From: a plasmid | Assembly (NCBI RefSeq): GCF_054482595.1 | Contig: NZ_JBTHVH010000004.1 | Length of the DNA: 64,000 nt | Reading direction: 5' to 3' (one strand) | Part shown: piece after piece, positions 3,464 through 30,367 of the stretch | Layout: every line of letters begins with the position of its first letter | How positions within the stretch are numbered: position 1 is the first letter of the stretch | Program-made: the position numbers and the translations under genes | Notes under the pieces: model-generated | What the model was told of the DNA's origin: nothing | Seen by the model: the letters and a program-made list of their open reading frames with translations, nothing else | The model's database searches: none

Positions 3464-3488
3464 ATTGATCACCGAAGAAGCGTATCCC

Positions 3489-6166: not shown

Positions 6167-6251
6167 AATTTTCCTCGTACGGCTGGTACGGCCAGCAGAA
6201 AACGTTGCTGTACAGAAAGGTGCTGCCCGGAAAGCAGCACCTTTCTGTCTG

Positions 6252-7531: not shown

Positions 7532-7553
7532 GACATCCCCTTAATTAATAAAA

Positions 7554-8192
7554 TTATAAGACCACGTTTACTTCTGGCGGCGGCGGTGGCAGGTCTTCAA
7601 GACCGATCACTTCTTTTTTGCTGGACTCCACTTTCTGACTGCCTACCGAAATGCTCGCACTGACCCATTTAAAGAAAGCTTTAATCGTCGAACTGTCAGC
7701 TGTATCGAGCTGAACCACGATTTCAGTGATTTCTTTGAGGACGCTGGTATCGGCATCATGCCCGGCTGCACATGCCACAACAACGCCGGTTCTGGCCGCT
7801 TTAAAGTCATTCAGGCCTTTACGCCAGTCATCATTCGGACTTCCATCCGTCATCAGGAATACAAGGGGACGCCAGTCACCTTTAGTGTCAGCCGTCGTTT
7901 TCTGTACTTCTTTGGCAATGGAGCTGGCCGTGAGGGAAAGCGCTTCGCCAAGAGAGGTGGTGCCGCTGGCTGTTAGTGCTGGCATCTGGAAACTCAGGAG
8001 GTCTGTCAGGGGGACTGCCTGTCGGGCTGAAGAATCAAAGGTGATCACTGACACGTAAGCCGTTTCGAGTGCATACGGATCCTGTTTCAGCGTGGTAAGC
8101 AGCGTCTGAACGCCATTCTTAACCGCTTCGATAGGCTCTCCGTGCATAGAGCCGGACGTGTCGAGTAGCAGATATACGGGTAAGCGTCTCAA
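7554..8192 (-). CDS. terY: vWA-domain protein TerY
   Basis: 'RRLPVYLLLDTSGSMHGE' MIDAS motif. Start assigned to TTG at 8192 preceded by AAGAAGGAA, matching the other vWA paralog N-termini, rather than the track GTG at 8273. Confidence 0.75.
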   Translation of the reverse strand: MRRLPVYLLLDTSGSMHGEPIEAVKNGVQTLLTTLKQDPYALETAYVSVITFDSSARQAVPLTDLLSFQMPALTASGTTSLGEALSLTASSIAKEVQKTTADTKGDWRPLVFLMTDGSPNDDWRKGLNDFKAARTGVVVACAAGHDADTSVLKEITEIVVQLDTADSSTIKAFFKWVSASISVGSQKVESSKKEVIGLEDLPPPPPEVNVVL

Positions 8193-8611
8193 ATGTAATT
8201 CCTTCTTAAGAGATCGGAAGAGGAGAGTAGTTTCAGGAAGAGGCCAGAGTTTGTAGATTTGATAAAACGGCACGACATCTGTCGGGTGGAGATTAAATAC
8301 TCAGAAGCGGCATTAAAGAAATAAGTTAACCACCATTGAATTACCGACATGTGAATGGCCTCTTATCAGAGAAAAAAATTCAGACCGTACTGGAATATAA
8401 ATTTCTGAAAAAAACTCCGGCAAAAATAAACTTTCTTATGTATGAAAATCATCATACATCACAGATCTGCATGAATGGAGTGTAAATCGCCCAAAGATTG
8501 ATGTGTAGCACAAGAGGATGTCAAGACACCAGGTTTTGTAGGCAGAAAGGCGCTGCTGACATTGCGGGAGGAGAATAGATCAAAACTCCGTCACGCAGAT
8601 ACAGAGGTGAA

Positions 8612-8641
8612 ATATGACAAAACCGGGGTTTTCACCCCGGT
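8612..8641 (-). terminator. Rho-independent terminator candidate downstream of terW
   Basis: Hairpin arms 'ACCGGGG'/'CCCCGGT' followed on the minus strand by a U-rich run; lies 15-40 bp after the terW stop. Confidence 0.5.
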
Positions 8642-8654
8642 CTGAGATTTAGCG

Positions 8655-9122
8655 TCAGGACTTTTTAGCGCTGTATTCTTTTATCAGTTCATCAACGGAG
8701 TGCAGAGCCAGCTTCTCTACCGCTTCACTTCGGGTCGAGCCACTCAGCGCAGCCAGACGGTCAATTTTTCTTAAAATCCGCATGCGTAGCGATAATGACA
8801 CGGCTGTTTTTTTATCCTTATCGAGTACGACCTTCCCTGTGGACTCACCGGTTTTCAGTTCAGCATTCTGTGCGAGCGCTTCATTCATCCGGCGAAGGGT
8901 CTTTTTATCCAGCTGGCCCGGATTAACGAGATGGTAGGAATGACCTGCCTTGCTGTATTTGATCTCCGCAGAATATGACTCGCGTAGCTCTTTGAGTGCC
9001 CGGGTTAATGTCGGCTCTGAGCATTCCAGACTGGTTATAATGTCGGCAGCGGAAACGGGCTTGCCGGTGCCCAGTAAGTTGGCAAGCTTAAAAATCCGGG
9101 CCTGTCTGGTATTTAATTGCAT
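8655..9122 (-). CDS. terW: TerW-like small regulatory/DNA-binding protein
   Basis: 155-aa ORF in the position and size of terW between the terY operon and the biosynthesis operon; the N-terminus looks helix-turn-helix-like. Identity is from recalled ter locus organisation. Confidence 0.65.
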   Translation of the reverse strand: MQLNTRQARIFKLANLLGTGKPVSAADIITSLECSEPTLTRALKELRESYSAEIKYSKAGHSYHLVNPGQLDKKTLRRMNEALAQNAELKTGESTGKVVLDKDKKTAVSLSLRMRILRKIDRLAALSGSTRSEAVEKLALHSVDELIKEYSAKKS

Positions 9123-9139
9123 CGTAAGATTTAGCCTGC

Positions 9140-10348
9140 TTAAAGGGTTAGTGGTTCAATAGGCTGAAAAATGAAGGTACTGCTCATCTTTCGAATAACC
9201 GGGTGATCGCCTAACGCTTCAACCGGATCAATGTGTTCTAAGCCTGCAAAATTTACTGACGACATCTGGCTGCGACTGCATTTGCAGGACAGGATATACT
9301 CATCCTCCAGATAGCCGGTCCGCTTACTGACCCGTTGCGTAAAGCCTGACACAATCACGTTGTCGAACGGTAGCGTATGTAAAACGATACCGACCAGGCG
9401 GAACAAGCAGCCATGGACGTGGCGGGCATAGTTTTCGCGTACGGCTTTTTGCGTCATGGCTTTTTCCGTCAGCTCCGTGCCCCGGGCATTAACGCCGTAA
9501 ATCTTATCAGGGAAATCTTCAATCTCAGCTAAATCAACATCCAGCAGGACTGCTGATAGCTCCGGCTTTACTTCAAATGCAACAAGCGTTTCACGCGGCC
9601 ATTCAGTTTCTGCCAGCACACCCGCCAGGTATGATTCGAAAAACGCGGCGTCTGTCCGGAACTGCTGCCGGGCATCTGCCTGAGCCGTGGCGAGCCGTTT
9701 TTCATGTTCTTCAGCCTCAAACTTCCAGTTTGCATACTGTTCGGCCCAGGCCGTCCGTTGTTGCTGGTACCGGTGCTGTCGAAGGGTATTCTCACGCTCC
9801 ACATCAATCAGCTCCTGCTGCCACCGGCGAAGATTTTCGGCGTGGCGCTCAGCTTTAGCTGATTCCGATTCAAACCATTTACCCAGAAAACTAATGCCTT
9901 CGCTCTCGGCAGGCTTTTCCGGCAATGCAAGATAGTCTGGCTTTTCTGGACGCACCGGTGCCGGAACCTGAAAAGGCGACGTTCTGTTATGCAGGTATAC
10001 TGCTTCCAGCTCTGCCCAGCTGATGCCTGTTTTAGGATCCGGCGTCAGCTCGTGAATATTACGGATTGCGGTCACCGCTGACATGAGATCAGCGGCTTCC
10101 TCCTCAAGCGCCTGTCTGAGCCCCGGGTCGGTAGCCGTCCGGTTCCCACCTCCGGAACGCGCGGCCCGATCAAGCCGGGTACGGTAACTCAGCCCGGTAC
10201 CGGGCAAGCCCAGATTGGCATAGGTCCCCCGGCTTCCAAAAGAAACGGAAGCACCTCTCGGCCCGACACTCAGGCTCGGTGCACCGTTACTCAGGTTGAG
10301 GCGAACACCAGGAATAATGTTGATCGACTTTCTGAATCTGAACCCCAT
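9140..10348 (-). CDS. DUF4236-like hypothetical protein
   Basis: N-terminus 'MGFRFRKSINIIPGVRLNLS' matches my recollection of the DUF4236 signature; the remainder is Gln/Glu-rich and coiled-coil-like; ATG at 10348. Confidence 0.55.
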   Translation of the reverse strand: MGFRFRKSINIIPGVRLNLSNGAPSLSVGPRGASVSFGSRGTYANLGLPGTGLSYRTRLDRAARSGGGNRTATDPGLRQALEEEAADLMSAVTAIRNIHELTPDPKTGISWAELEAVYLHNRTSPFQVPAPVRPEKPDYLALPEKPAESEGISFLGKWFESESAKAERHAENLRRWQQELIDVERENTLRQHRYQQQRTAWAEQYANWKFEAEEHEKRLATAQADARQQFRTDAAFFESYLAGVLAETEWPRETLVAFEVKPELSAVLLDVDLAEIEDFPDKIYGVNARGTELTEKAMTQKAVRENYARHVHGCLFRLVGIVLHTLPFDNVIVSGFTQRVSKRTGYLEDEYILSCKCSRSQMSSVNFAGLEHIDPVEALGDHPVIRKMSSTFIFQPIEPLTL

Positions 10349-10358
10349 TATGATTTCC

Positions 10359-11318
10359 TTAATGATGCTGGGTCACGGTAAGTAATCTGATTCCATCAGC
10401 GCTTTGCTCGTTCTGTAACCCATAAAAACGAGCTCTGTCCAGAATGCCAGCCGCCCAGCGGCGATGTGTGGCGGGTTCACACATTGCTCCCTGCGACTTA
10501 AACACGGCCTGGGTAGAGTTCAGGATCCGCAGAGCGTCAGAATGCTCACCCTGAGTGACCATCAGCGCGTTTTGAATGACCTCTATCTGACCCGGGTGAA
10601 TGGCCGTTTTCCCAACAAGCCCATGTGCCATATCAAGAGCCAGCTCTCTGGCCATTACGGCATGATCGTCAATATGCTCACATACGGGCGCGGTCAGGGC
10701 AAAATCACGCGGGCCGAAGACCGAAACGAGCATTTTGATGACGTAGCCCATCGGGCTGTCATACAGCGTCAGGTCCCGGGGACGGCGAAGCGACACAACG
10801 TTCATAAGATCGTTGCCGCCGATTCGAAGCGCAATAATGCGGTCGTGGCAGGGATGTTCCACCAGACGGGTGGCCAGCTCCCGCATCTGAACCACGTCAA
10901 AGACGTCTTCTGTTTCCAGCGTTGGCATCATGCACAGGTGAGTCCCGCCCATGATATCCCACCATTCAGCTAACGAACTGAGGGTAAATTTCGGCAACAC
11001 AAACCCGTCGACAGCGGAAAGATCATAATGCGCTTTTAACCATCTGCCCATTTCGGCATGCCGGGGGCGAATGAACACCAGAGGCCAGTCATTTTTACCC
11101 AGGCTATGCATGCTGTTACTGAGCTCGTGCAGCAGGTGCTCCAGATTTTTGAGGGCGACGGGGATGTCTGCTTCACTGACAGCATCCTCCAGGCAAATCA
11201 CCAGAGAGCGCAAACCCGGGATTTTCCCGTGCAGGACGGCATCAGCAATATCTTCCCGTGTTGCAGGCATGTATAGCGTGGCTCCCAGATTCCAGGGAGA
11301 AAGACGATTTTTCATCAA
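10359..11318 (-). CDS. HpcH/HpaI aldolase / citrate-lyase beta (CitE)-like protein
   Basis: 'VICLEDAV' and 'ALRIGGNDL' motifs typical of the CitE/HpcH TIM-barrel family; 319 aa. Confidence 0.7.
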   Translation of the reverse strand: MMKNRLSPWNLGATLYMPATREDIADAVLHGKIPGLRSLVICLEDAVSEADIPVALKNLEHLLHELSNSMHSLGKNDWPLVFIRPRHAEMGRWLKAHYDLSAVDGFVLPKFTLSSLAEWWDIMGGTHLCMMPTLETEDVFDVVQMRELATRLVEHPCHDRIIALRIGGNDLMNVVSLRRPRDLTLYDSPMGYVIKMLVSVFGPRDFALTAPVCEHIDDHAVMARELALDMAHGLVGKTAIHPGQIEVIQNALMVTQGEHSDALRILNSTQAVFKSQGAMCEPATHRRWAAGILDRARFYGLQNEQSADGIRLLTVTQHH

Positions 11319-12394
11319 AGTACCTTCTTGATAATGGTTACAGCCCGATACTGGCCGAGGGTTCCCCCCATTTCTGTAACAACTATTCCCTTTTCACGAG
11401 CAAGCCCTACAAGCAAGGCAACGTCCGGGTCGTCAATAGAACGCACAAATACATGGTCCGGTACCCGACGTAATACAGCCCGGGTTGCTTCAGCAATACC
11501 GGGTTTTATACGATTGACGCTGTCCACTTTAAATTCATCGGCCAGGAACGCGATAACGTCGCGACTTGTCTGCCATAAGATCCGGGCTGACTCCGTATTC
11601 CAGCTCAGGGGAGCGAGGGATGACGGGGTTAACTTCTTACGGAAATGAGCGACGGTATCGACAAGCATCCGGCTGCATTCGAATTCACTGAGATGCTCGC
11701 AAACCATGCACCCGTGTAATCCTTCAGAGGACCACACTGACCGGGAGATCAGGCCTGACACCGGCGCACCCATGATGCCAAAAGGAATGAGCCAGTCATC
11801 ATCACTGGCTGCAAGCCAGGAGCAGCCACAGGGATCGGCCAGGACAACCAGTCGCGGCTGCTCAGGATAGCCCGGGCGATCTTTCAGTGCGCGTACAAGC
11901 TCTCCGGTAATTGCGCCTTTACCTGTCCATCCGTCAACAAAGACAATACCGCTGGTACCATGCCGCTCTTCAATGACGTCGAGGGCTGCACCGTCAATTC
12001 CACGATCCCGGATAATGCTGATACCGTAATGCCATGAGGTTTTCCCCATGTCACGCAGGGCCTGGTGCAGCATAACGCCGAGCGGCACGCCAGCCCTGAC
12101 AAGACTGGCCAGTACAATGGGCTCATCACCAAAGCGTTTGGCCAGAGCAATAGCGAGCTGTGTGACTTCTTTTGCAAGTCTCTCTGCGCCCCGATCCAGC
12201 GCCCGGTGAAACAAATCAAGATGCCATTGTGTTGGCGCTGGCTCCTGACTGAGCATGTCCGAATAATGTTTCTTCCCTGACTGAATCAGCTCTTCTTTTT
12301 GCTCAACCGGCGTCATCTCAATGACAACCGGCTTTAGCAGAAATTCCACGTCACCGGGCTGGTATGAGCCGGTAAATGTGTCATGTGGCTGCAT
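11315..12394 (-). CDS. StiP-like protein (family annotated as cysteine protease StiP in ter-linked operons)
   Basis: About 360 aa Cys-containing ORF in the ter-linked operon position; ATG at 12394 with GGAG RBS preferred over the TTG at 12460. Family name is from recall, not motif proof. Confidence 0.5.
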   Translation of the reverse strand: MQPHDTFTGSYQPGDVEFLLKPVVIEMTPVEQKEELIQSGKKHYSDMLSQEPAPTQWHLDLFHRALDRGAERLAKEVTQLAIALAKRFGDEPIVLASLVRAGVPLGVMLHQALRDMGKTSWHYGISIIRDRGIDGAALDVIEERHGTSGIVFVDGWTGKGAITGELVRALKDRPGYPEQPRLVVLADPCGCSWLAASDDDWLIPFGIMGAPVSGLISRSVWSSEGLHGCMVCEHLSEFECSRMLVDTVAHFRKKLTPSSLAPLSWNTESARILWQTSRDVIAFLADEFKVDSVNRIKPGIAEATRAVLRRVPDHVFVRSIDDPDVALLVGLAREKGIVVTEMGGTLGQYRAVTIIKKVL

Positions 12395-12395
12395 T

Positions 12396-13169
12396 TTAAT
12401 TTTCTCCAAAAATTCGCTGTGAAATGGCATCTGCAAACTGACTCTGACGCGGGATGCCAAACCAGCTGCACAGTTTCATAAAACGATGATCGCTCAGGCT
12501 GTCGCCCAGGCCAATTACGGGGAAGACTCCGCGTTCAGCCCGAAGTTTTTCAAGCAGCCATCTGACGGCCAGCCCTTTCTCAACCGGGGTGGGAAGCCAG
12601 GCCACGTTATTACTGTTGCGGTGGATGTAGAAGCCCTCGGTCGGAAACACCGTTTCTATCTCATCTGCAATGGCATTGAGCTCGTCAAGGCGGGTGCTGT
12701 CGCGGTGCTTCATCACCATATAAACCGCCGTTTCACCGTATTCGAAGTTCAGCCTTGCCCAGGCATTGATCCCTTTTGCGTCCATCATTTCAGTGATCAG
12801 ACGCTGCATCGATGTCAGCTTTTCCTGGTAGGGAGCCAGCTGGCCAAGCATATGGGCCTTCCACTCCTCGTCGGGTTTGCCTTCAGGCGTGAGAATGACG
12901 GCCCCGTGCGTGGTGATTGCCCAGGAGTGGAAAGGGATCCGGACGCGGCTGATTTCTTCAGTTCCCCGGGCGGTAACAGGTATGAGTTCAGCCTGCTCCA
13001 GGAGCCAGTCCACCAACATGGACTGTTCTTCCGTCATAAAGCTTCGTGGATTCAGGGTGCGATCAACGGCACCGGTACGGAATGGCTCCAGGGCCAGCTC
13101 GTCCACCATTTTACGACGGGTCTGAAAGAGCGTGTCGTCAAGGTCGCTCAGAACAACGGGTTTATTCAT
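12396..13169 (-). CDS. HAD-superfamily hydrolase (phosphatase)
   Basis: HAD motif I 'VLSDLDDTLF' directly after the start 'MNKPVV' (ATG at 13169). The 112-codon N-extension in the track ORF is rejected because it overlaps the upstream PRTase gene. Confidence 0.75.
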   Translation of the reverse strand: MNKPVVLSDLDDTLFQTRRKMVDELALEPFRTGAVDRTLNPRSFMTEEQSMLVDWLLEQAELIPVTARGTEEISRVRIPFHSWAITTHGAVILTPEGKPDEEWKAHMLGQLAPYQEKLTSMQRLITEMMDAKGINAWARLNFEYGETAVYMVMKHRDSTRLDELNAIADEIETVFPTEGFYIHRNSNNVAWLPTPVEKGLAVRWLLEKLRAERGVFPVIGLGDSLSDHRFMKLCSWFGIPRQSQFADAISQRIFGEN

Positions 13170-14304
13170 AGGTAACAATCTCCACGACGGGCGCAACCTC
13201 AGCCAGGGCTTTAAGAAGCTGCGTGTCAATACTTTCTGCGGGTGTCTCAGTACACACAAGAATACGGTCAAACTGCTGGTGGGCGACGTTATAGACAAAA
13301 TTGGGGATGCCCAGCCCGTAGTTATCCGTAAAGGAAATGGCGGACTCAATGGCATAACCAACGGCGATAGGGGAGCGGGTGGTCGAACCATAAAGTGCCT
13401 GTGCTCCGGCAGCTTCGAGCCGTTCAGCAAGCAGGAACGGCTCCCAGACGAATTCCCCGGTCCCGAGAACCAGAATACGTTCCCCCTTGCGGACGGAGAC
13501 CTCATGGCCGAGATCGGCCGCAGGTGCGAGCATCCCCAGTCGACCCCAGGACTGTTTTCCCAGGATGTCCCATTCTCCGCGTGAAGTTACGTTGACTTTC
13601 GGCATGTCCGGGACAGGTGCATCAGGTAATGGGGTCCATCCCCACTGACCGCTTACAAGCGAAACCGAAGTGACGGGCAAGGATGTGCGCTCCGACAGGG
13701 CGTTGCTACTCCAGTCGGTAAGCGTAACGGCGATAACCTGTTCAATATGTTGAAGCTTGCCGGTATTACGCAGGGCAGAAAGCAGGTTAATAAAGGTATT
13801 ACCGGTGGTTGCCTCGTCATCAATCAAAACCAGCGTTCGTGCGTTGGTAACACGACGTCTTTTCTCTTCATCATCTGGCAGATAGATCAGATGATCGGTG
13901 GCGTGGCTGTGTTCTTCCTTGAACTCGCAAAGTAACGTGCCATCAACCGGGTGACGGGTAGAGGTCAGATAGACAGATTCACGATGCTGGTGGCGCACTT
14001 CATCAAACACACCGGCCCCTAGCCCAACGGCGGTTTCAGCCATACCGATAAAAAGTACGGGCCCTGCCAGCGTTGCGGGGAACTGGCTGGCAAGCTGTCT
14101 GTAGGCCTGCCGCATGACTGAGGGTGGCACGGGAATGTGCCTGCCGAGTACTTTGCTGACAAACAGAAAGGCGCGTTTCGGGTTACGTCTTTCAGCGATA
14201 TCAAACAGGTCATCGAGCGAAACATCACCCTGGTCGCGGGTTACCTGTATCGTACCGCATGAGAGGGTACGGCGATAAATCATATCTTCGAGGGTATCAG
14301 ACAT
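13162..14304 (-). CDS. Phosphoribosyltransferase-domain protein (PRTase_2/TRSP-like)
   Basis: PRPP-binding signature 'TLVLIDDEATTGNTF'; about 380 aa; ATG at 14304. Confidence 0.75.
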   Translation of the reverse strand: MSDTLEDMIYRRTLSCGTIQVTRDQGDVSLDDLFDIAERRNPKRAFLFVSKVLGRHIPVPPSVMRQAYRQLASQFPATLAGPVLFIGMAETAVGLGAGVFDEVRHQHRESVYLTSTRHPVDGTLLCEFKEEHSHATDHLIYLPDDEEKRRRVTNARTLVLIDDEATTGNTFINLLSALRNTGKLQHIEQVIAVTLTDWSSNALSERTSLPVTSVSLVSGQWGWTPLPDAPVPDMPKVNVTSRGEWDILGKQSWGRLGMLAPAADLGHEVSVRKGERILVLGTGEFVWEPFLLAERLEAAGAQALYGSTTRSPIAVGYAIESAISFTDNYGLGIPNFVYNVAHQQFDRILVCTETPAESIDTQLLKALAEVAPVVEIVTYE

Positions 14305-14313
14305 AAACACGCC

Positions 14314-15372
14314 TTAATTCAGATGGTTAGAGAGTGATTCCGGGTAAACGATGACATCTGTGATGGATCTCACTGCAACCGGAGAAAAGGTATTTCTGGC
14401 GCTCTGGATCACCGCATCTTCAGACATCAGACCGAGCTTAAAGGCAGCAAACAACCCGGGAAGGTTCACCCCGCTGTGAAGGGTATAACCCACCCCGCCT
14501 GACGGACGCATGTTGGTTTCAAGCAGCACCGGGTTGCCATTCACATCGTTTCGCGTCTGAACATTCACCAGCCCGTCGGCCTTCATAACCCGGGCGCAGT
14601 CACAAGCCAGTTCCCAGGCGCTTCCTTCGTTTACCAGATACTGGATAGCCCCTTCCTTACGGCGTCCCACGGCTGCGAGTATTTCGCCCTTATCCGCGAG
14701 GATATCGACGGAAAATTCCGGGCCTGGCAGGTACGGCATCAAAACAAGGGGTTTAAACGACTCAGAAGCCGATGCTGCTGCAATATACTGTTGCGGACTG
14801 ACCAGACGATGTTCGGGATGATTAAAGACGGCCATGGGCGAAGCACTGTCATCAAAGCGCCAGAATCCCATGCCATAGATACCCGTCACCGGCTTCACGC
14901 ATACCGGGCTGTCCGAGAACGGCGGGGCCGCGAGGTGCGTCTTTAATTCTGCCAGCGTATTCACCCGCCAGGACGGTACGACCGGGAGCCCGTTTTGCTC
15001 CATAAACTGAGCAAAAGTAACTTTTTCGTCAGCCAGAGTTAACCAGTCGACGCCTGTTGCACCGGTAGTAAGGGTGGCTCCGGTCGATTCAATGGCTGAA
15101 CGGTGTTCTTCAAACCACTGGCTGTTACGGCCAGTATGAATATGGTGGATGCCGTAGGTCTGAATGGTTTCCTGAATAAACTGAAGACGTTTTTGAGGAT
15201 CTTCAGGTTCAGTCAAAGAATAATCGGCAACGGAAAGAATTTCATGTCTTTCGTTACGGTGGGAGGCAAATACGGTAATAGCAAAATTATTTTTTTGTGC
15301 AAATGATTTTACCCCCTGAATAATATCTCGCTGGGAGGACAAACCTTCCATAAACCAAATTTTCTTGTTCAT
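14314..15372 (-). CDS. ATP-grasp family enzyme
   Basis: ATP-grasp motif 'LLETNMRPSGG'; first gene of the minus-strand operon, divergent from terZ. Confidence 0.75.
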   Translation of the reverse strand: MNKKIWFMEGLSSQRDIIQGVKSFAQKNNFAITVFASHRNERHEILSVADYSLTEPEDPQKRLQFIQETIQTYGIHHIHTGRNSQWFEEHRSAIESTGATLTTGATGVDWLTLADEKVTFAQFMEQNGLPVVPSWRVNTLAELKTHLAAPPFSDSPVCVKPVTGIYGMGFWRFDDSASPMAVFNHPEHRLVSPQQYIAAASASESFKPLVLMPYLPGPEFSVDILADKGEILAAVGRRKEGAIQYLVNEGSAWELACDCARVMKADGLVNVQTRNDVNGNPVLLETNMRPSGGVGYTLHSGVNLPGLFAAFKLGLMSEDAVIQSARNTFSPVAVRSITDVIVYPESLSNHLN

Positions 15373-15694
15373 TTTTTTTAATTATCCGGAACGCCATGCA
15401 AATTTATGATTGAGAAGTGAGTCTATGAGTGTCTACGCTACATGTCAATCATAATATGATTAATAACTTCAGTGGTTATGGAGTGCGTCAGTGTTTTTTT
15501 AGTACCTTATAACGTATTGATATTTAAATTAAAAATAGAAAAATGAACACCATGAAAAGGATTTATTTTTGTGTTTTTGAAGAAAACTACCAAAATTTCC
15601 CTTGTCAGAGAACTTCATCATGATATGATTTTCTTCGTCAGTTACTAAATATACCTTTGATTGTCTCGGTCATTACCATTTTAAGGAATAAAAC
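15373..15694. promoter_or_regulatory. AT-rich divergent control region between the biosynthesis operon and terZ
   Basis: 322-bp non-coding, strongly AT-rich gap between divergently transcribed operons; no specific promoter elements assigned. Confidence 0.4.
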
Positions 15695-16276
15695 ATGGTT
15701 TCATTAGTTAAGAACCAGACGGTATCACTCAGCAAAGAATCATCTGCATTAAGCCAGCTTCATTTCGGTCTCGGTTGGGATCCGGTTAAGAAAAAAGGTC
15801 TTCTTGGAGGATTGTTTGGAGGCAACGACTCAATCGATCTCGATGCTGGCTGCGTATTAATGGACAGCACCGGTAAAACAATTGACACCATCTGGTTCCG
15901 CAAACTGGAATCCACCTGCGGCGCTGTTGTGCACAGTGGCGATAACCTGACCGGTGAGGGTGACGGTGACGATGAGGTGATTAAGGTCAACCTCTCCCGA
16001 CTGCCTGCAAACGTTGAATACCTGGCGTTTACGGTAAACAGCTTCCGTGGTCAGTCGTTCAATGACGTCGAAAACGCGTTCTGCCGCGTTGTCGATCAAA
16101 CCGGCAAAGAGCTGGCTCGCTACAAGCTGACTGAGCAGGGCTCACATACCGGGATCGTTATTTCTTCGCTGCGCCGTAATAACGGCAACTGGGACTTTAC
16201 CGCCCTTGGCCATGCCTGTCGCGGCCGCACAATTGACGATATGCACTCCGATATCGTTTCAGCGGTTATTCGCTAA
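15695..16276 (+). CDS. terZ: Tellurite resistance protein TerZ (TerD family)
   Basis: '[15 protein letters not shown]' TerD motif; 193 aa; first gene of the Z-A-B-C-D-E order. Confidence 0.85.
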   Translation: MVSLVKNQTVSLSKESSALSQLHFGLGWDPVKKKGLLGGLFGGNDSIDLDAGCVLMDSTGKTIDTIWFRKLESTCGAVVHSGDNLTGEGDGDDEVIKVNLSRLPANVEYLAFTVNSFRGQSFNDVENAFCRVVDQTGKELARYKLTEQGSHTGIVISSLRRNNGNWDFTALGHACRGRTIDDMHSDIVSAVIR

Positions 16277-17433
16277 TGAACCTGACGCCGGGGGGCAATG
16301 CCCCCGTTCCAGCCCAGGAGTTGCGGGTCCGGATCACCTCGGGCGGCCAGGTGGATGCTTCGGCGTTTCGCCTGTATGCCGACGGGAAGGTGCAGGGTGA
16401 TGCGGACATGGTGTTTTATGGTCAGCCACGTAACGATGATGGTACCGTCAGCCTGGTCAGTGAAGGCCAGTACTCAACCTTTACTGTCGCGCTCAACCGG
16501 CTGAAACCTGATGTCCAGAAAATTGCGTTCACCGTGACCTGTGACGGTGGGCAGACGGTGTCCGGTCTTCGTAATCTTTCCATCGACGTGGAGCAAGGGG
16601 CTACCGGCCTGGTTAGCGGCAGTGTCGAACTGAGCGGCCGTCAGGAAGCAGCCTTAATTCTGGGTGAATTTTACCGTCGTAATAATGACTGGAAATTCCG
16701 CTTCGTTGCGCAGGGGTTCAACGGTGGACTTAAACCGCTGGCAGAGCATTTCGGCGTAAATATTGCCGACGAACCGGCTCCCGCAGCCCCGACTCCTCCG
16801 GTTGTAACCCCTCCGCCAGTTGAGACAAAAATCAGCCTGAGCAAGGTATCGCTGACAAAAGAGAAGCCTGCAATCAGCCTGACCAAACGGGATAACTTCG
16901 GTGAAATCCGGATCAACCTGAACTGGCACCGGGGCAGCGGCAAATCAGGCTTTGCAGGCATGTTCGGCTCCAAAGGAATCGACCTGGATCTGGGGGCCTT
17001 TGTTGAGCTTCAGGACGGGTATAAATCGGTCATTCAGGCGCTCGGTAATGCATTCGGTAATTATCGGGATGAACCGTATGTTCAGCTCAAGGGCGATGAC
17101 CGTACGGGTGATGTATCAGACGGCGAGTGGCTGCATATCAATGGACGTGAATGGAAGCATATCCGCGAAGTGCTGATTTACGCCTTTATTTATGAAGGTG
17201 TTCCCAGCTGGGACAAGACTGATGGTGTGGTCACCATTCATGTGCCGGATCAACCGCCCATTGAGACCCGCCTGACCGAAGGTGAAAACCGTCGCACATT
17301 GTGCGCCATTGCCAGACTCGTAAACGAAAACGGCGCAATTAAAGTCGAGCGAATTAACCAGTACTTCAAAGGCCAGGACGAAATGGACCGGGCATTTGGC
17401 TGGGGATTTCGCTGGAGCGCCGGTTCTAAATAA
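16276..17433 (+). CDS. terA: Tellurite resistance protein TerA
   Basis: 385 aa with two TerD-like halves; its start overlaps the terZ stop (TAATGA). Confidence 0.8.
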   Translation: MNLTPGGNAPVPAQELRVRITSGGQVDASAFRLYADGKVQGDADMVFYGQPRNDDGTVSLVSEGQYSTFTVALNRLKPDVQKIAFTVTCDGGQTVSGLRNLSIDVEQGATGLVSGSVELSGRQEAALILGEFYRRNNDWKFRFVAQGFNGGLKPLAEHFGVNIADEPAPAAPTPPVVTPPPVETKISLSKVSLTKEKPAISLTKRDNFGEIRINLNWHRGSGKSGFAGMFGSKGIDLDLGAFVELQDGYKSVIQALGNAFGNYRDEPYVQLKGDDRTGDVSDGEWLHINGREWKHIREVLIYAFIYEGVPSWDKTDGVVTIHVPDQPPIETRLTEGENRRTLCAIARLVNENGAIKVERINQYFKGQDEMDRAFGWGFRWSAGSK

Positions 17434-17455
17434 CACAGCAACAAAGGAAACAGGT

Positions 17456-17911
17456 ATGAGCTTTTTCGACAAAGTTAAAGGTGCCATTAACTCAGGCCGT
17501 GACGAACTGACCCGCCAGGTTGGCCGTTTCAAAAACAAAAAATTCATGCAGGGCACCGTTGCTGTATGTGCCCGTATTGCCGTATCGAGTGACGGCGTAA
17601 GTTCGGAAGAAAAGCAGAAAATGATGGGCTTTCTGCGCTCTTCAGAAGAGCTGAAGGTCTTCGATACCAATGAGGTGATTGAGTTCTTCAATAAACTGGT
17701 TTCAAGCTTCGATTTCGATGTTGAAATCGGCAAGGGCGAAACCATGAAATACATCCTGGCGCTGAAAGATCAGCCTGAGGCCGCTCAGCTGGCCTTACGT
17801 GTTGGTATTGCCGTTGCGAAAAGTGACGGTAACTTCGATCAGGACGAGAAACTGGCCTCCCGCGAGATCGCTATCGCGTTGGGCTTCGACCCGGCTGAAT
17901 TTGGCCTCTGA
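17456..17911 (+). CDS. terB: Tellurite resistance protein TerB
   Basis: 151 aa; ATG at 17456 with AAAGGAAACAGG RBS; the track N-extension is rejected. Confidence 0.8.
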   Translation: MSFFDKVKGAINSGRDELTRQVGRFKNKKFMQGTVAVCARIAVSSDGVSSEEKQKMMGFLRSSEELKVFDTNEVIEFFNKLVSSFDFDVEIGKGETMKYILALKDQPEAAQLALRVGIAVAKSDGNFDQDEKLASREIAIALGFDPAEFGL

Positions 17912-17933
17912 TCCACATCCCTAAGGGTAAAAT

Positions 17934-18974
17934 ATGGTTTCCACACACATCGGCTTCCCGACTGAAACGGTCATTGTTTTTATTGCGCTTTCAGTCGGTG
18001 CCATCTTTATTGACCTGTTTATGCACCGTGATGACAAGCCTATCTCGCTGAAGAGTGCGGCGCTCTGGTCCGTATTCTGGGTTGTGGTTGCGATGGCATT
18101 TGCCGGTTTCCTCTATATCCACCACGGTGCTGAGGTTGCCAGTCTGTTTGTCACGGGTTATGCGCTGGAGAAAGTGCTGTCGGTCGATAACCTGTTCGTC
18201 ATGATGGCCATCTTCTCCTGGTTCGCCGTTCCGGATCGTTATCGCCACCGTGTTCTCTACTGGGGGATCATTGGTGCCATTGTCTTCAGGGGCATCTTTG
18301 TCGCCATCGGTACGAGCCTGCTGAGTCTGGGGCCGTACGTTGAAGTTGTCTTCGCTATTATCGTTGCCTGGACAGCGGTCATGATGCTTAAAAGCGGTGA
18401 TGACGATGATGAAATTGAGGATTACTCCCAGCATCTGGCTTACCGCATGGTTAAACGCTTCTTCCCTATCTGGCCGAAGCTCAGAGGGCATGCCTTCCTG
18501 CTTAACCAGAAGGAAGTGGATGCTGAACTGGCGAAACCAGAAAACAGCGATGTCACCATTGGCCGTGGTAAAAAAGCGGCGCTGTATGCGACCCCGCTGT
18601 TCCTGTGTGTAGCTGTGGTTGAACTCTCGGACGTAATGTTCGCGTTTGACTCGGTACCGGCAATCATTGCCGTCAGTCGTGAACCGCTTATCGTCTATAG
18701 TGCCATGATGTTTGCTATCCTGGGCCTGCGTACTCTGTACTTTGTCCTTGAGGCACTGAAACAGTACCTGGTTCATCTGGAGAAGGCCGTTATCGTGCTG
18801 CTGTTCTTCATCGCGGCAAAACTCGGCCTGAATGCGACCGATCACATCTGGCATCATGGTTACAGCATCGCGGCAACAACCAGCCTGTATGTTGTACTGG
18901 GTGTACTGGCGCTGGGCATTCTCGCAAGCGTCATGTTCCCGGGCAAACCTGAATCTGAGGAAAAGGGGAGTTAA
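17934..18974 (+). CDS. terC: Tellurite resistance integral membrane protein TerC
   Basis: 346 aa with multiple hydrophobic segments, in the expected position. Confidence 0.85.
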   Translation: MVSTHIGFPTETVIVFIALSVGAIFIDLFMHRDDKPISLKSAALWSVFWVVVAMAFAGFLYIHHGAEVASLFVTGYALEKVLSVDNLFVMMAIFSWFAVPDRYRHRVLYWGIIGAIVFRGIFVAIGTSLLSLGPYVEVVFAIIVAWTAVMMLKSGDDDDEIEDYSQHLAYRMVKRFFPIWPKLRGHAFLLNQKEVDAELAKPENSDVTIGRGKKAALYATPLFLCVAVVELSDVMFAFDSVPAIIAVSREPLIVYSAMMFAILGLRTLYFVLEALKQYLVHLEKAVIVLLFFIAAKLGLNATDHIWHHGYSIAATTSLYVVLGVLALGILASVMFPGKPESEEKGS

Positions 18975-19022
18975 TCCCCTTAAGTGTTAACCTGAACAAT
19001 TACTAATCGAAGAGGTTATTTT

Positions 19023-19601
19023 ATGAGTGTTTCTCTTTCCAAAGGCGGGAACGTCTCCCTGAGTAAAGCAGCTCCGTCAATGAAAAACGTCCTGGTGGGC
19101 CTTGGCTGGGATGCGCGTTCAACAGACGGTCAGGACTTTGACCTGGATGCTTCAGCGTTCCTGCTGGCCTCAAACGGCAAAGTGCGCGGCGATTCAGATT
19201 TCATCTTCTATAACAACCTGACGTCATCTGACGGTTCCGTAACCCATACCGGTGATAACCGTACCGGTGAAGGTGATGGTGATGATGAATCGCTGAAAAT
19301 TAAACTGGACGCCGTCCCGTCTGATGTTGACAAGATCATCTTCGTTGTCACTATCCATGATGCTCAGGCTCGTCGCCAGAGCTTTGGTCAGGTATCCGGT
19401 GCGTTTATTCGCCTGGTCAATGACGATAACCAGACTGAAGTCGCTCGCTACGATCTGACCGAAGATGCGTCCACTGAGACTGCCATGCTGTTCGGCGAGC
19501 TGTATCGCCACAATGGTGAGTGGAAATTCCGCGCAGTGGGCCAGGGTTATGCTGGTGGTCTGGCATCTGTATGTGCTCAGTACGGCATTAACGCGTCCTG
19601 A
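19023..19601 (+). CDS. terD: Tellurite resistance protein TerD
   Basis: '[15 protein letters not shown]'; 192 aa. Confidence 0.85.
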
Positions 19602-19668
19602 TCGAAAAGTAACTTTTCACCCGGGGCTGTTAATGCAGCCCTCATTCAACTGTTTGCAGGAGCTAAAA

Positions 19669-20244
19669 ATGGCAGTTTCTCTCGTAAAAGGCGGCAACGT
19701 ATCTCTGACCAAAGAAGCACCAACCATGAATATCGCTATGGTTGGCCTCGGCTGGGATGCCCGTGTAACTGACGGTCAGGCTTTTGACCTGGACGCTTCC
19801 GTGTTCGCAGTAGGCGAAGACGGTAAAGTGCTGTCAGATGCGCATTTCATTTTCTTCAATAACAAAACCAGCCCTGATGGCGCGGTAGAGCACCAGGGCG
19901 ACAACCGTACCGGTGAAGGCGACGGTGACGATGAGCAGGTCAAAATCGATCTGACCAAAGTCTCAGCAGATATCAAAAAACTGGTGTTTGCCGTTACCAT
20001 CTATGATGCAGAAGCGCGTAAACAAAACTTCGGCATGGTGAGCAACAGCTTCATACGCGTTTACAACAACGACAACGGCACGGAAATTGCCCGTTTCGAT
20101 CTGTCTGAAGATGCCTCAACCGAAACCGCTATGGTCTTCGGTGAACTGTATCGTCATGGCGCTGAGTGGAAGTTTAAAGCTGTCGGTCAGGGCTTTGCCG
20201 GTGGCCTGGCGGCTCTTGCCTCCCAGCACGGCGTTAACATCTAA
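19669..20244 (+). CDS. terE: Tellurite resistance protein TerE
   Basis: '[15 protein letters not shown]'; ATG at 19669; the track N-extension is rejected. Confidence 0.85.
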
Positions 20245-20261
20245 AACAACGCTGAATCATA

Positions 20262-20287
20262 CCCCGGCAATGCCGGGGTTTTTTTTG
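20262..20287 (+). terminator. Rho-independent terminator after terE
   Basis: 'CCCCGGCAATGCCGGGG' hairpin followed by T9. Confidence 0.65.
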
Positions 20288-20672
20288 GTTGCGATCCGCT
20301 TTCAGGAGGGAGTAGTAGAAAGGGGACTGGAAATTTCAGAAAGCAGGTCATGTTAATTCAGACCTGAGCCTTTTAAAGGCAGGAAACGGATTTATCTCTG
20401 GTTGCTGGTTAAAGCCGGTATTCCGTGCCTTTTATCAACAGAATGCCCCTCTGATATATGTTACTTTTGCGGTTTATGAAGGAACGGGATCTGGAACATA
20501 AGATACCCGGTCAATCAAAATTCCAGTTCAACAGGTATAGAAACTTCAGCGTGATGAAATATGGTGTCACACCATATATACGCCTCACCAGAAATCCAGC
20601 GTCCTGAACTAAGCCTGGGGAACATATATAAGCGCTGCGCTTTAAAAATAATCAAAAATCAGGAGAGTTAAT

Positions 20673-25094: not shown

Positions 25095-25098
25095 CGAT

Positions 25099-28281: not shown

Positions 28282-28304
28282 GTTGATCGTGCTATGATCG
28301 ACTG

Positions 28305-30362: not shown

Positions 30363-30367
30363 AGTAG

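What the first reader, a model, noticed from the sequence alone, without database searches (positions are those of the whole stretch)
10359..15372. Five-enzyme operon predicted to build a phosphoribosyl-derived small molecule, divergent from terZ
ATP-grasp ('LETNMRPSG'), PRTase ('LVLIDDEATTGNT'), HAD phosphatase ('LSDLDDTLF'), a StiP-like protein and an HpcH/CitE-like enzyme ('CLEDAV', 'GGNDL') are tightly packed with overlapping boundaries. The enzyme set suggests a ligation between a ribose-phosphate-derived moiety and an acid, followed by dephosphorylation. Such ter-linked operons have been predicted to make a nucleoside-like metabolite, but I know of no identified product.
Basis: partly seen in the sequence, partly recalled or inferred. 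Interest (0 to 1): 0.75.

Follow-up and report, generated by a model that had tools for sequence, protein, structure and literature searches.

The report
Known Ter-linked ribosyl-metabolite biosynthesis operon
This is the well-known enzyme operon that sits beside the tellurite-resistance (ter) genes on IncHI2 plasmids; it was predicted in 2012 to make a nucleoside-like molecule from PRPP, its enzymes look fully active, and its product is still unidentified.

Summary
Window 10359-15372 (minus strand) holds five tightly packed genes: an ATP-grasp ligase, PRTase_2+TRSP, a HAD-IIB phosphatase, StiP+PELOTA and a CitE-like lyase. They are transcribed divergently from terZ. All five quoted motifs are present.

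The window is 100% identical to IncHI2A plasmids. The locus occurs in about 19% of complete E. coli genomes and about 2,400 plasmids.

It is the "Ter biosynthetic module" described by Anantharaman, Iyer and Aravind (2012). Several Pfam families are named for it.

What I add:
- The transcription unit probably has seven genes, continuing through DUF4236 and terW to a strong terminator.
- "StiP" is a second PRTase fused to an L7Ae/Pelota-like domain, not a cysteine protease.
- The order PRTase-HAD-StiP is kept in 76 of 80 loci from at least six phyla. The lyase is present in 70 and the ATP-grasp in 48.
- Natural fusion proteins link all five enzymes.
- Catalytic residues are at least 95% conserved.
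- The HAD is the ortholog of the crystallised P. aeruginosa "trehalose-6-phosphate phosphatase" (PDB 6d3v/6cj0), whose gene lies in the same module.

Likely function: PRPP-dependent ribosylation followed by 5'-dephosphorylation, giving a riboside that serves the Ter system. The product is unidentified in the papers I could search. Already known; modest interest.

The parts
14314..15372 (-). Gene 1: ATP-grasp ligase (352 aa), Pfam ATPgrasp_Ter PF15632
   Evidence: Pfam E 2.7e-37. A family profile matches CPS-like ATP-grasp 2pn1 (E 7e-15), the CPS large subunit, L-amino-acid ligase 3vot and Ddl. K160, E219, Q272, E285, N287 and R289 are invariant in 43 homologues.
13162..14304 (-). Gene 2: type I phosphoribosyltransferase (PRTase_2 PF15609) with a C-terminal TRSP domain (PF12500), 380 aa
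12396..13169 (-). Gene 3: HAD-IIB-type phosphatase (257 aa; PGAP 'hypothetical protein'). Overlaps gene 2 by 8 nt.
   Evidence: E 3e-43 over the full length to PDB 6d3v/6d3w/6cj0, P. aeruginosa 'trehalose phosphatase'. NCBIfam gives weak HAD-IIB/MPGP matches. HAD motifs D9-x-D11, T66, K198 and D223..D227 are at least 95% conserved in 80 homologues.
11315..12394 (-). Gene 4: 'StiP' (359 aa). N-terminal second PRTase-fold domain plus C-terminal PELOTA/L7Ae-like domain.
10359..11315 (-). Gene 5: TIM-barrel C-C lyase of the CitE/malyl-CoA-lyase branch (318 aa), Pfam C-C_Bond_Lyase PF15617
   Evidence: Pfam E 9.3e-114. The family profile matches citrate lyase beta, acyl-CoA lyase beta, malyl-CoA lyase and CLYBL structures at E 9e-16 to 5e-8, but HpcH/HpaI aldolases only at 5e-3. 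E43, D44, R83, R85, E134, D169, K236, H240 and P241 are invariant in 52 homologues.
9140..10348 (-). Gene 6 (same strand, 10-nt gap): DUF4236 protein, 402 aa. A lineage-specific passenger of the operon.
   Evidence: PGAP annotation. No NCBIfam or PADLOC match. Found in 6 of 80 related loci, in three different positions relative to the module.
8655..9122 (-). Gene 7 (17-nt gap): terW, a winged-helix regulator of the ter genes
   Evidence: PGAP and AMRFinder 'TerW'. Weak HTH matches. Follows the lyase in 12 of 80 loci, all Enterobacterales. Reported to control ter transcription (PMC7843439 citing Valkovicova 2011).
8620..8643 (-). Intrinsic-terminator-like hairpin (10-bp stem, 6 G-C, T-run) just after the terW stop
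   Evidence: It is the only strong terminator-like site on the minus strand downstream of the seven genes.
15420..15448 (-). Sigma-70-like promoter (TTGACA-17-TAGACT, 10 of 12) upstream of the ATP-grasp gene
   Evidence: This is a consensus match only; the number of such sites in the region is not above the shuffle expectation.
15448..15460 (.). Palindrome ATCATAATATGAT, a candidate TerW operator at the biosynthetic-operon promoter
   Evidence: Paired with the copy at 15617. The pair is conserved upstream of the module in 11 Enterobacterales loci that encode TerW and absent from loci without TerW. Consistent with the TerW sites proposed in PMC7843439.
15617..15629 (.). Palindrome ATCATGATATGAT, a candidate TerW operator overlapping the -10 of the terZ promoter-like site (15602-15629)
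15695..20244 (+). Divergent terZABCDE operon (TerD-family, TerB and TerC proteins), the functional partner of the module
   Evidence: PGAP annotation of the identical plasmid. TerD-family genes lie within 10 kb of the module in 70 of 80 loci.

Best explanation
The five genes are the 'biosynthetic module' of the Ter stress/defence system, here in its full five-enzyme form. They are carried on an IncHI2A plasmid and probably transcribed as one seven-gene unit (ATP-grasp, PRTase_2-TRSP, HAD, StiP-PELOTA, CitE-like lyase, DUF4236, terW). Transcription would start from a promoter back-to-back with the terZABCDE promoter, with both promoters carrying a TerW-type palindrome.

Shown:
- Every enzyme has an intact, conserved active-site signature.
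- The order PRTase-HAD-StiP(-lyase) is conserved across phyla.
- The enzymes occur as natural fusions.
- The module is almost always next to TerD-family genes.

Inferred mechanism:
1. The core reaction is PRPP-dependent. PRTase_2 joins ribose-5-phosphate to an unknown acceptor, a base-like nucleophile.
2. The HAD-IIB phosphatase removes the 5'-phosphate to give a riboside.
3. The second PRTase (StiP), with its altered PRPP loop and L7Ae/Pelota-like domain, either adds a second phosphoribosyl group or binds a ribose-phosphate or RNA-like moiety.
4. In the four- and five-gene versions, a CitE-like acyl-CoA lyase and an ATP-grasp ligase make and attach, or pre-assemble, a carboxylic-acid part.

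The product, a nucleoside-like riboside as predicted by Anantharaman et al. 2012, is presumed to act as a ligand or signal for the TerB/TerD/TerC proteins. It is not needed for tellurite resistance as such.
For: Identity and prevalence:
- 100% identity to IncHI2A plasmids.
- Present in 1017 of 5426 complete E. coli genomes and 2361 plasmids.

Family assignments.

Structure:
- The StiP N-terminal domain has a PRTase fold and the C-terminal domain an L7Ae/Pelota fold.
- PRTase_2 is closest to APRT, XPRT and OPRT.

Catalytic residues are at least 95% conserved.

Synteny in 80 loci from genomes of different species:
- 76 have PRTase_2+HAD+StiP in that order, 70 also have the lyase, and 48 also have the ATP-grasp.
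- 70 have TerD-family genes within 10 kb.
- The loci come from Gamma-, Alpha- and Betaproteobacteria, Bacteroidota, Desulfovibrio, Planctomycetota, Nitrospirota and Cyanobacteria/Melainabacteria.

Natural fusions: HAD-StiP (8), PRTase_2/TRSP-StiP (at least 20), ATP-grasp-PRTase_2-StiP (1) and StiP-lyase (1).

Operon signals: junctions of -8 to +17 nt, promoter-like sites and a terminator.

Literature:
- RNA-seq in Pectobacterium shows an operon of five uncharacterised genes divergent from terZABCDE and co-regulated with it, with two putative TerW sites between them (PMC7843439).
- The 2012 prediction is summarised in PMC7824862, PMC5512222, PMC11994780 and PMC8115787.
- PRTase-like enzyme plus HAD as a two-step ribosylation device has an experimental precedent in CriT/CrpP of Bcs3 (PMC10299916).
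- The HAD ortholog from P. aeruginosa is a crystallised Mg-dependent sugar-phosphate phosphatase.
Against: - No product, substrate or acceptor is known. Every chemical step is inferred from family membership.
- StiP has only one acidic residue in its PRPP loop (VDGWTGKG, against the canonical [DE][DE]xxxTGxT). It may therefore bind rather than turn over PRPP.
- Its PELOTA/L7Ae domain points to RNA rather than a small molecule.
- The HAD belongs to the IIB class, whose characterised members act on sugar phosphates. Its ortholog was reported to hydrolyse trehalose-6-phosphate, which fits a glycoside at least as well as a nucleotide.
- terZ-F, terBCDE(F) or terCD alone confer tellurite resistance in E. 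coli. No phenotype is yet attached to the five genes in enterobacteria.
- Co-transcription of DUF4236 and terW with the five genes is inferred from spacing only. PMC7843439 proposes a separate PhoP site upstream of terW in Pectobacterium.
Confidence: 0.62

Rival explanations
1. The module is a macromolecule-ribosylating system, not a small-molecule pathway. A PRTase-like enzyme transfers ribose-5-phosphate from PRPP to a hydroxyl or amine of a glycan, lipid, protein or RNA, the RNA being held by the PELOTA/L7Ae domain. The HAD then trims the 5'-phosphate, as in CriT/CrpP capsule ribofuranosylation.
For: - The CriT/CrpP mechanism is established (PMC10299916).
- The HAD is of the sugar-phosphate (IIB) type, and its ortholog hydrolyses a glycoside 6-phosphate.
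- The L7Ae-type RNA-binding residues K297, E302, R305 and R310 are invariant.
- HAD-StiP fusions mirror the fused phosphatase-transferase architecture.
Against: - PRTase_2 is closest to APRT, XPRT and OPRT and has a fully canonical PRPP loop.
- There are no glycan-assembly, export or lipid-carrier genes in the locus.
- No Rfam RNA lies in or near the operon.
Confidence: 0.15
2. The PRTases are defence effectors that act by perturbing nucleotide pools. They would drain PRPP or nucleobases and the HAD would dephosphorylate the products, like the PRTase effectors of type III retrons, ShosTA and PsyrTA. They would not be building a dedicated metabolite.
For: - The ter cluster of IncHI2 plasmids is historically linked to phage inhibition (Whelan 1995, cited).
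- PRTase_2 gives weak PADLOC matches to retron PRTase_III-A (E 8.5e-4).
- PRTase effectors that disturb purine metabolism are documented (bioRxiv 10.1101/2025.09.30.679545).
- A jumbo phage carries the three-gene core.
Against: - The PADLOC hits are marginal and cover only the PRPP loop.
- A pool-draining model gives no role to the conserved CitE-like lyase, the ATP-grasp, or the TRSP and PELOTA domains.
- The enzyme order and the fusions look like an assembly line.
- The operon is co-expressed with terZABCDE rather than held in check by an antitoxin.
Confidence: 0.1
3. The current database labels are right and the genes are functionally unrelated. StiP would be a cysteine protease (Reichert 2013), the HAD a trehalose-6-phosphate phosphatase of trehalose synthesis (Cross 2018), and the lyase a citrate-lyase subunit.
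For: - PGAP names.
- Reported T6P hydrolysis by the Pseudomonas ortholog.
- A. baylyi stiP mutants are tellurite-sensitive (cited in PMC11994780).
Against: - StiP folds as a PRTase plus an L7Ae-like domain with no protease-like structural neighbour, and no cysteine is conserved above 71%.
- No T6P synthase gene is annotated in the locus.
- Strict synteny in 76 of 80 loci and natural fusions of all five enzymes show one pathway.
- In A. baylyi, stiP lies upstream of the lyase and three TerD-family genes on the same strand (L045), so the mutant phenotype may be polar. This last point is an inference.
Confidence: 0.03

Closest known systems
Ter-associated 'nucleoside-like metabolite' biosynthetic module (Anantharaman, Iyer & Aravind, Mol Biosyst 2012), five-gene version
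   Same: The enzyme set is identical: ATPgrasp_Ter, PRTase_2+TRSP, HAD, StiP-type PRTase+PELOTA_1 and the C-C_Bond_Lyase TIM barrel. The linkage to terZABCDE and terW/terXY is the same. This window is one of the archetypal (R478/IncHI2-type) loci.
   Different: Nothing essential differs. The IncHI2 version carries DUF4236 between the lyase and terW, and it lacks the extra HAD-IB hydrolase that follows the lyase in 23 other loci.
P. aeruginosa 'trehalose-6-phosphate phosphatase' (PDB 6d3v, 6d3w, 6cj0; Cross et al. 2018)
   Same: It is the ortholog of the window's HAD. tblastn identity is 36-40% over the full length for enterobacterial-plasmid copies, E 3e-43 for the window protein against 6d3v, and all HAD motifs are identical. 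It occupies the same position between PRTase_2 and StiP in a syntenic Ter module.
   Different: It was characterised as a stand-alone trehalose-pathway enzyme and drug target. In the papers I could search its gene context in the Ter module is not mentioned. The physiological substrate is therefore probably not T6P (inference).
CriT/CrpP of H. influenzae Bcs3 and the Thermobacillus composti ribofuranosyl transferase (PRPP-dependent ribofuranosylation plus HAD dephosphorylation)
   Different: Those enzymes ribosylate a growing polysaccharide and are fused to glycan polymerase modules. Sequence identity is only about 10%. The Ter module has no glycan-assembly genes and has a second, canonical nucleobase-type PRTase.
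Nucleobase salvage PRTases (APRT, XPRT, HPRT, OPRT)
   Different: Sequence identity is below 20%. There are extra conserved motifs (E-x-H-S-H), added TRSP and PELOTA domains, and StiP has a shortened PRPP loop with a single acidic residue.
CitE / malyl-CoA lyase / CLYBL family of acyl-CoA C-C lyases
   Same: Profile matches over most of the length. The Mg/substrate residues (E43, D44, E134, D169) and the IHPxQ motif are conserved.
   Different: It forms a separate family (PF15617), with NCBIfam scores far below the CitE/RipC cut-offs. The substrate and any CoA dependence are untested.
PRTase effectors of anti-phage systems (type III-A retrons, ShosTA, PsyrTA, Ophion OpnC)
   Same: A PRTase domain in a phage-resistance context, with a weak PADLOC hit.
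   Different: The match is marginal (E about 1e-3) and limited to the PRPP loop. The partner proteins are different, and there is no toxin-antitoxin or reverse-transcriptase context.

Membership tests
Ter biosynthetic module (Anantharaman et al. 2012), five-gene form | ATP-grasp of the Ter-specific family | tested here: met
   PF15632 ATPgrasp_Ter, E 2.7e-37
Ter biosynthetic module (Anantharaman et al. 2012), five-gene form | PRTase_2 with a C-terminal TRSP domain | tested here: met
Ter biosynthetic module (Anantharaman et al. 2012), five-gene form | HAD phosphoesterase between the two PRTases | tested here: met
   position conserved in 76 of 80 loci
Ter biosynthetic module (Anantharaman et al. 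2012), five-gene form | Second PRTase (StiP family) fused to a PELOTA domain | tested here: met
   PF11202 and PF15608; PRTase and L7Ae/Pelota folds
Ter biosynthetic module (Anantharaman et al. 2012), five-gene form | TIM-barrel C-C lyase | tested here: met
   PF15617, E 9.3e-114; CitE-like profile matches
Ter biosynthetic module (Anantharaman et al. 2012), five-gene form | Genomic linkage to TerD, TerB and TerC genes | tested here: met
   terZABCDE(F) lies divergently 322 bp away; TerD-family genes are near the module in 70 of 80 loci
Ter biosynthetic module (Anantharaman et al. 2012), five-gene form | Makes a nucleoside-like metabolite | not testable with these tools
   Requires metabolomics or in vitro reconstitution. 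The papers searched report no product.
Type I phosphoribosyltransferases | PRPP-binding loop: hydrophobic strand, two acidic residues, then xxTGxT | tested here: met
   PRTase_2 has LVLIDDEATTGNT, with D162, D163, E164, G168 and T170 invariant
Type I phosphoribosyltransferases | The same PRPP loop in the StiP domain | tested here: inconclusive
   The fold is PRTase, but the loop is VFVDGWTGKG, with one acidic residue and two fewer positions. It is invariant in 106 sequences. Catalytic competence is unknown.
HAD-superfamily phosphatases | Motifs I (DxDxT), II (S/T), III (K) and IV (DxxxD or GDxxxD) | tested here: met
   D9-L-D11-D-T13, T66, K198 and G222-D223-S-x-x-D227 are at least 95% conserved and identical in the crystallised ortholog
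ATP-grasp ligases | ATP-binding Lys, hinge Glu, Mg ligands (Q/E...E-x-N) and catalytic Arg | tested here: met
   K160, E219, Q272, E285, N287 and R289 are invariant in 43 sequences
CitE / malyl-CoA lyase family | Mg/substrate-binding acidic residues and the IHPxQ motif; use of a CoA thioester | tested here: inconclusive
   The residues are conserved and the profile matches CitE-like structures at E down to 9e-16. NCBIfam scores (34 bits) are far below the CitE/RipC cut-offs, and CoA use cannot be tested here. A crotonase gene neighbours the module in 8 loci, which is a weak hint of CoA chemistry.
Cysteine proteases (the current 'StiP' product name) | Conserved catalytic cysteine and a peptidase fold | tested here: not met
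   No Cys is conserved above 71% in 106 representatives clustered at 50% identity. All structural neighbours are PRTases or L7Ae/Pelota proteins.
OtsA/OtsB trehalose pathway (the 'trehalose phosphatase' name of the ortholog) | Partner trehalose-6-phosphate synthase and a trehalose-pathway context | tested here: not met
   No such gene is among the 29 annotated features of the 24-kb locus or in the two Pseudomonas loci. The rest of the plasmid and the host chromosome were not searched.
Defence systems catalogued in PADLOC-DB v2 | Significant match of the component proteins to a catalogued system | tested here: not met
   Only marginal hits: PRTase_III-A at 8.5e-4, and a WYL-model hit for TerW at 4e-5. 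The upstream TerY/PP2C genes gave none at 1e-5.

The most novel reading that the evidence does not exclude
The Ter module may not make a nucleoside at all. It could be a PRPP-dependent ribosylation device of the CriT/CrpP type. Its acceptor would be a sugar-like molecule or an RNA held by the L7Ae/Pelota domain of StiP, and its ribosylated product would be the signal or effector behind the phage-inhibition and colicin-resistance phenotypes of ter loci. The in vitro T6P activity of the crystallised Pseudomonas HAD would then be a surrogate for a ribofuranoside-5-phosphate glycoside.
Probability: 0.12. Interest if true: 0.7.

Novelty: already known. Interest (0 to 1): 0.3.

Why it matters
The ter locus is carried by about a fifth of complete E. 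coli genomes and by thousands of Klebsiella, Salmonella and Enterobacter plasmids. It has been linked to gut fitness, phage inhibition and colicin resistance. Even so, half of the locus, this enzyme operon, has no known product.

Identifying the metabolite would explain what the TerB/TerD/TerC proteins sense or handle. This finding does not open that question; it re-discovers it.

Three pieces may be of practical use:
- One pathway enzyme already has crystal structures and an assay, under the name 'trehalose phosphatase'.
- The database label 'cysteine protease StiP' is very probably wrong.
- The minimal conserved core is two PRTases plus the HAD, which is where reconstitution should start.

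Tried and rejected
- The 2012 paper (PMID 23044854, PMC4104200) is not held in the library. Its content is taken from later papers that summarise it and from my own recollection.
- Single-sequence searches of PDB found nothing for the ATP-grasp or StiP and only noise for PRTase_2. Family profiles and AF2 models were needed.
- PADLOC gave only marginal hits for the seven proteins and none at E 1e-5 for the six upstream TerY/PP2C-region proteins.
- Rfam found no RNA family in 8400-16000 at E up to 1. There is therefore no riboswitch or K-turn RNA candidate for the PELOTA domain.
- The search for homologous proteins returned only relatives at least 72% identical among its 120 listed hits, too close for conservation analysis. 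It was replaced by the 50%-cluster search and a genome scan.
- My first palindrome search used the wrong spacer (N4) and missed the sites. It was corrected to N3. I then found that the TerW sites are already described for Pectobacterium, so I do not claim them as new.
- The long 369-aa ORF at 12396-13505 was rejected as the HAD gene. Homologues and PGAP start at MNKP (13169), and the extension overlaps PRTase_2 in another frame.
- Literature searches for a product, for a defence mechanism, or for a link between the 'TPP' and ter genes found none. The library lacks most subscription journals.

Full report
**Origin of the window**

Window 8600-21000 is 100% identical over 12.4 kb to many plasmids of E. 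coli, Salmonella, Klebsiella and E. fergusonii. One of the identical plasmids is typed IncHI2A, MOBH, conjugative. The window is collinear with E. coli plasmid pHNTH9F11-1 from position 1 to at least 27000.

The same 12.4-kb stretch, at 95-100% identity, is found in 1017 of 5426 complete E. coli genomes, at 700 chromosomal and 354 plasmid places. It is also found in 2361 PLSDB plasmids. This is the classical ter locus of R478-type plasmids and of the O157-type islands.

**Checking the observation**

The five ORFs are at the stated coordinates on the minus strand:
- ATP-grasp, 14314-15372
- PRTase, 13162-14304
- HAD, 12396-13169
- StiP, 11315-12394
- lyase, 10359-11315

All five quoted motifs occur in the translations. 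Junctions are +9, -8, +1 and -1 nt.

Pfam gives ATPgrasp_Ter (2.7e-37), PRTase_2 (1.8e-63) plus TRSP (5.1e-23), StiP (4.9e-89) plus PELOTA_1 (4.6e-25), and C-C_Bond_Lyase (9.3e-114). The HAD is only weakly seen by Pfam and NCBIfam, as class IIB, MPGP/TPP-like. It matches a solved HAD phosphatase at E 3e-43.

terZ starts 322 bp away on the other strand, across a 30%-GC spacer.

**Extent of the transcription unit**

The packed run continues on the same strand with DUF4236 (9140-10348, 10-nt gap) and terW (8655-9122, 17-nt gap). It ends at a strong terminator-like hairpin at 8643-8620, with a 10-bp stem.

Two promoter-like sites lie in the spacer. One, TTGACA-17-TAGACT, lies at 15448-15420 on the minus strand. 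A divergent one for terZ lies at 15602-15629.

Each carries a copy of the palindrome ATCAT-N3-ATGAT, at 15448-15460 and 15617-15629. The pair is conserved upstream of the module in Enterobacter, Serratia, Xenorhabdus, Proteus, Morganella, Pantoea, Superficieibacter, Yersinia and Mixta loci. All of these encode TerW. The pair is missing from loci without TerW.

This is not new. Two putative TerW sites between the divergent operons were proposed for Pectobacterium, at the region that TerW protects in E. coli. RNA-seq there showed a five-gene operon divergent from terZABCDE and co-regulated with it (PMC7843439). Whether DUF4236 and terW are co-transcribed with the five genes is my inference from spacing.

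**What the proteins are**

*StiP.* PGAP names StiP a 'cysteine protease', after an A. baylyi study cited.
- An AlphaFold2 model built on 106 diverse homologues is very confident, with pLDDT 97.1.
- Foldseek's top 50 hits are all HPRT/HGXPRT, at probability 1.0.
- No cysteine is conserved in more than 71% of homologues.

[quoted passage not shown] Its PRPP loop is atypical: VDGWTGKG, with one acidic residue. It is nevertheless invariant.

*Lyase.* The family profile matches citrate-lyase beta, acyl-CoA lyase beta, malyl-CoA lyase and CLYBL structures at E 9e-16 to 5e-8. It matches HpcH/HpaI aldolases only at 5e-3. It therefore belongs to the CitE (acyl-CoA) branch.

*ATP-grasp.* It is nearest to CPS-like ligases, an L-amino-acid ligase and Ddl. 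This does not identify its substrates.

I collected 80 loci from genomes of different species with a StiP alignment and extracted the homologues of all five proteins. The following residues are at least 95% conserved or invariant:
- ATP-grasp: K160, E219, Q272, E285, N287, R289
- PRTase_2: D162, D163, E164, T167, G168, T170
- HAD: D9, D11, T66, K198, D223, D227
- Lyase: E43, D44, R83, R85, E134, D169, K236, H240, P241

No enzyme has lost its catalytic residues.

**Conservation and architecture**

Counts across the 80 loci:

| Content | Loci |
|---|---|
| PRTase_2-HAD-StiP, in that order | 76 |
| also the lyase | 70 |
| also the ATP-grasp | 48 |
| TerD-family genes within 10 kb | 70 |
| TerB | 43 |
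| TerC | 40 |
| TerW (Enterobacterales only) | 12 |
| DUF4236 | 6 |

These are lower bounds. Detection used single-query phmmer at E 1e-4, and some contigs are truncated.

The loci span Enterobacterales, Pseudomonas, Moraxellaceae, Burkholderiales, Sphingomonadales, Rhodobacterales, a Crocinitomicaceae (Bacteroidota), Desulfovibrio, Kuenenia, Magnetobacterium and Cyanobacteria/Obscuribacterales.

A. baumannii jumbo phage ME3 has only PRTase_2-HAD-StiP, next to TerD and vWA genes. Bacillus altitudinis has a four-gene form.

Among representatives of 50%-identity clusters there are natural fusions, all in the gene order:
- HAD-StiP, 8
- PRTase_2/TRSP-StiP, at least 20
- ATP-grasp-PRTase_2-StiP, 1 (P0220)
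- StiP-lyase, 1 (P0262)

The five proteins therefore act together. The core is two PRTases plus the HAD, and the lyase and especially the ATP-grasp are add-ons.

Recurrent extra neighbours are as follows:

| Neighbour | Loci |
|---|---|
| HAD-IB hydrolase right after the lyase | 23 |
| DUF475/YkoY-type TerC-like membrane protein | 16 |
| trypsin-like protease | 10 |
| crotonase | 8 |

In L067 the crotonase gene lies about 320 bp after StiP, where the lyase is missing.

**A link that the searchable literature does not make**

The window's HAD matches the whole length of PDB 6d3v/6d3w/6cj0, 'trehalose phosphatase' of P. aeruginosa, at E 3e-43; copies on enterobacterial plasmids are 36-40% identical to it by tblastn.

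A tblastn search with the crystallised sequence, followed by annotation of two P. aeruginosa plasmids, shows where that gene lies. It sits between PRTase_2 and StiP in a syntenic module: ATP-grasp, PRTase, 'TPP', StiP, lyase, HAD-IB, then terZABCDE-like genes.

The enzyme was studied as a trehalose-pathway drug target (Cross et al. 2018; the 'extra-chromosomal TPP' in PMC6838324). I found no paper that connects it to ter genes, but the library is incomplete. No T6P synthase gene is annotated in these loci.

My inference is that T6P, a glycoside 6-phosphate, is a surrogate for the real substrate: a ribose-5-phosphate glycoside made by the neighbouring PRTases.

**Most likely mechanism**

The shown and inferred steps are separated in the best explanation above. 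In short:
1. PRPP plus an unknown acceptor gives an acceptor-ribose-5-phosphate (PRTase_2).
2. Dephosphorylation gives a riboside (HAD).
3. StiP adds a second phosphoribosyl group or binds a ribose-phosphate or RNA moiety.
4. The CitE-like lyase and the ATP-grasp supply and attach an acid part in the larger versions.

The PRTase-then-HAD logic has an experimental precedent in CriT/CrpP of Bcs3 (PMC10299916).

The product is presumed to serve the TerB/TerD/TerC proteins. It is not required for tellurite resistance, which terZ-F, terBCDE(F) or terCD alone confer in E. coli.

**Rivals**

I considered three rivals:
- Ribosylation of a macromolecule or RNA (0.15).
- Nucleotide-pool perturbation, as with retron and ShosTA PRTases (0.10; only marginal PADLOC similarity).
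- The literal database labels (0.03; contradicted by fold, conservation, synteny and fusions).

**Comparison with what is known, and novelty**

Every defining feature of the five-gene Ter biosynthetic module is met. The window is one of its archetypes. Papers from 2017 to 2025 still call the product 'predicted'. My searches found no identified product and no defence mechanism for it.

The finding is therefore real and correctly interpreted, but already known. It restates an open question rather than opening one.

Interest is 0.3. The small increments are the HAD-'TPP' identification, the evidence against the protease label, and the definition of the conserved three-enzyme core.

Noticed in passing
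window 12396-13169; L002 9992-10750; L085 8992-9750: The module's HAD is the ortholog of the crystallised P. aeruginosa 'trehalose-6-phosphate phosphatase' (PDB 6d3v/6d3w/6cj0). That gene lies inside a syntenic Ter biosynthetic module on Pseudomonas plasmids, so the TPP label is probably a surrogate activity. I found no paper making this link.
   Followed up: yes
window 15448-15460 and 15617-15629: There are two copies of the palindrome ATCAT-N3-ATGAT, one at each of the divergent promoters. The pair is conserved in Enterobacterales loci that encode TerW and absent where TerW is absent. This is consistent with the TerW sites already proposed in PMC7843439.
   Followed up: yes
proteins P0139, P0159, P0175, P0180, P0190, P0191, P0206 (HAD-StiP); P0208, P0216, P0221 and others (PRTase_2-StiP); P0220 (ATP-grasp-PRTase_2-StiP); P0262 (StiP-lyase): Natural fusion proteins join the module's enzymes in the same order as the genes. 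This argues for a physical complex or an assembly line.
   Followed up: partly
window 9140-10348; also L019, L020, L023, L029, L054, L059: DUF4236 (402 aa, no family match beyond the DUF) recurs next to Ter modules in three different positions: after the lyase, after the terD/terE genes, and before PRTase_2. This hints at a functional tie rather than a chance neighbour.
   Followed up: partly
L002 12784-13512; L034 12010-12753; 23 loci in all: A second phosphatase, a HAD-IB family hydrolase (TIGR01490, 1.5e-30), directly follows the lyase in Pseudomonas, Rahnella, Proteus and other loci. It is absent from the window.
   Followed up: partly
L067 11375-12319; L062 13687-14571; 8 loci: A crotonase/enoyl-CoA hydratase gene neighbours the module. 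In L067 it lies about 320 bp after StiP, where the CitE-like lyase is missing. This is a weak hint that the accessory chemistry uses CoA thioesters.
   Followed up: partly
L003 (Acinetobacter phage vB_AbaM_ME3) 7174-10065, neighbours 34-2365: The jumbo phage carries only the PRTase_2-HAD-StiP core beside TerD and vWA genes. A few kb away are an NAD synthetase and an Appr-1-p (macro-domain) processing protein.
   Followed up: no
window 1964-8192, minus strand: Upstream of terW lies the terY/terX block: vWA, TerD-family, vWA, TerY-C metal-binding, PP2C phosphatase and a helix-hairpin-helix protein. None matched PADLOC models at E 1e-5, even though a 'TerY-P' defence system is in the literature.
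   Followed up: partly
L045 (Acinetobacter baylyi) 6963-12000 and downstream: In A. baylyi, the source of the 'StiP protease' name, stiP lies upstream of the lyase and three TerD-family genes on the same strand. The published tellurite-sensitive stiP mutant could therefore reflect polarity on those TerD-family genes.
   Followed up: no
window 24801-26424: A HipB-like HTH and HipA-family toxin pair (type II toxin-antitoxin) lies downstream of terF, according to the annotation of the identical plasmid.
   Followed up: no
window about 21000-45000, with GC 0.58-0.60 at 28000-34000: The rest of the window is a mosaic multidrug-resistance region matching more than 5000 plasmids in pieces. It includes aph(4)-Ia, an APH(6)-I phosphotransferase and an ISKpn19-family transposase, with abrupt GC shifts.
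   Followed up: no
window 12396-13505 and 12486-13175 (+), 13132-13584 (+), 10464-10973 (+): These are long alternative or antisense ORFs inside the operon. They include a 369-aa in-frame upstream extension of the HAD. Homologues start at the internal MNKP, so they appear to be by-products of composition rather than genes.
   Followed up: partly
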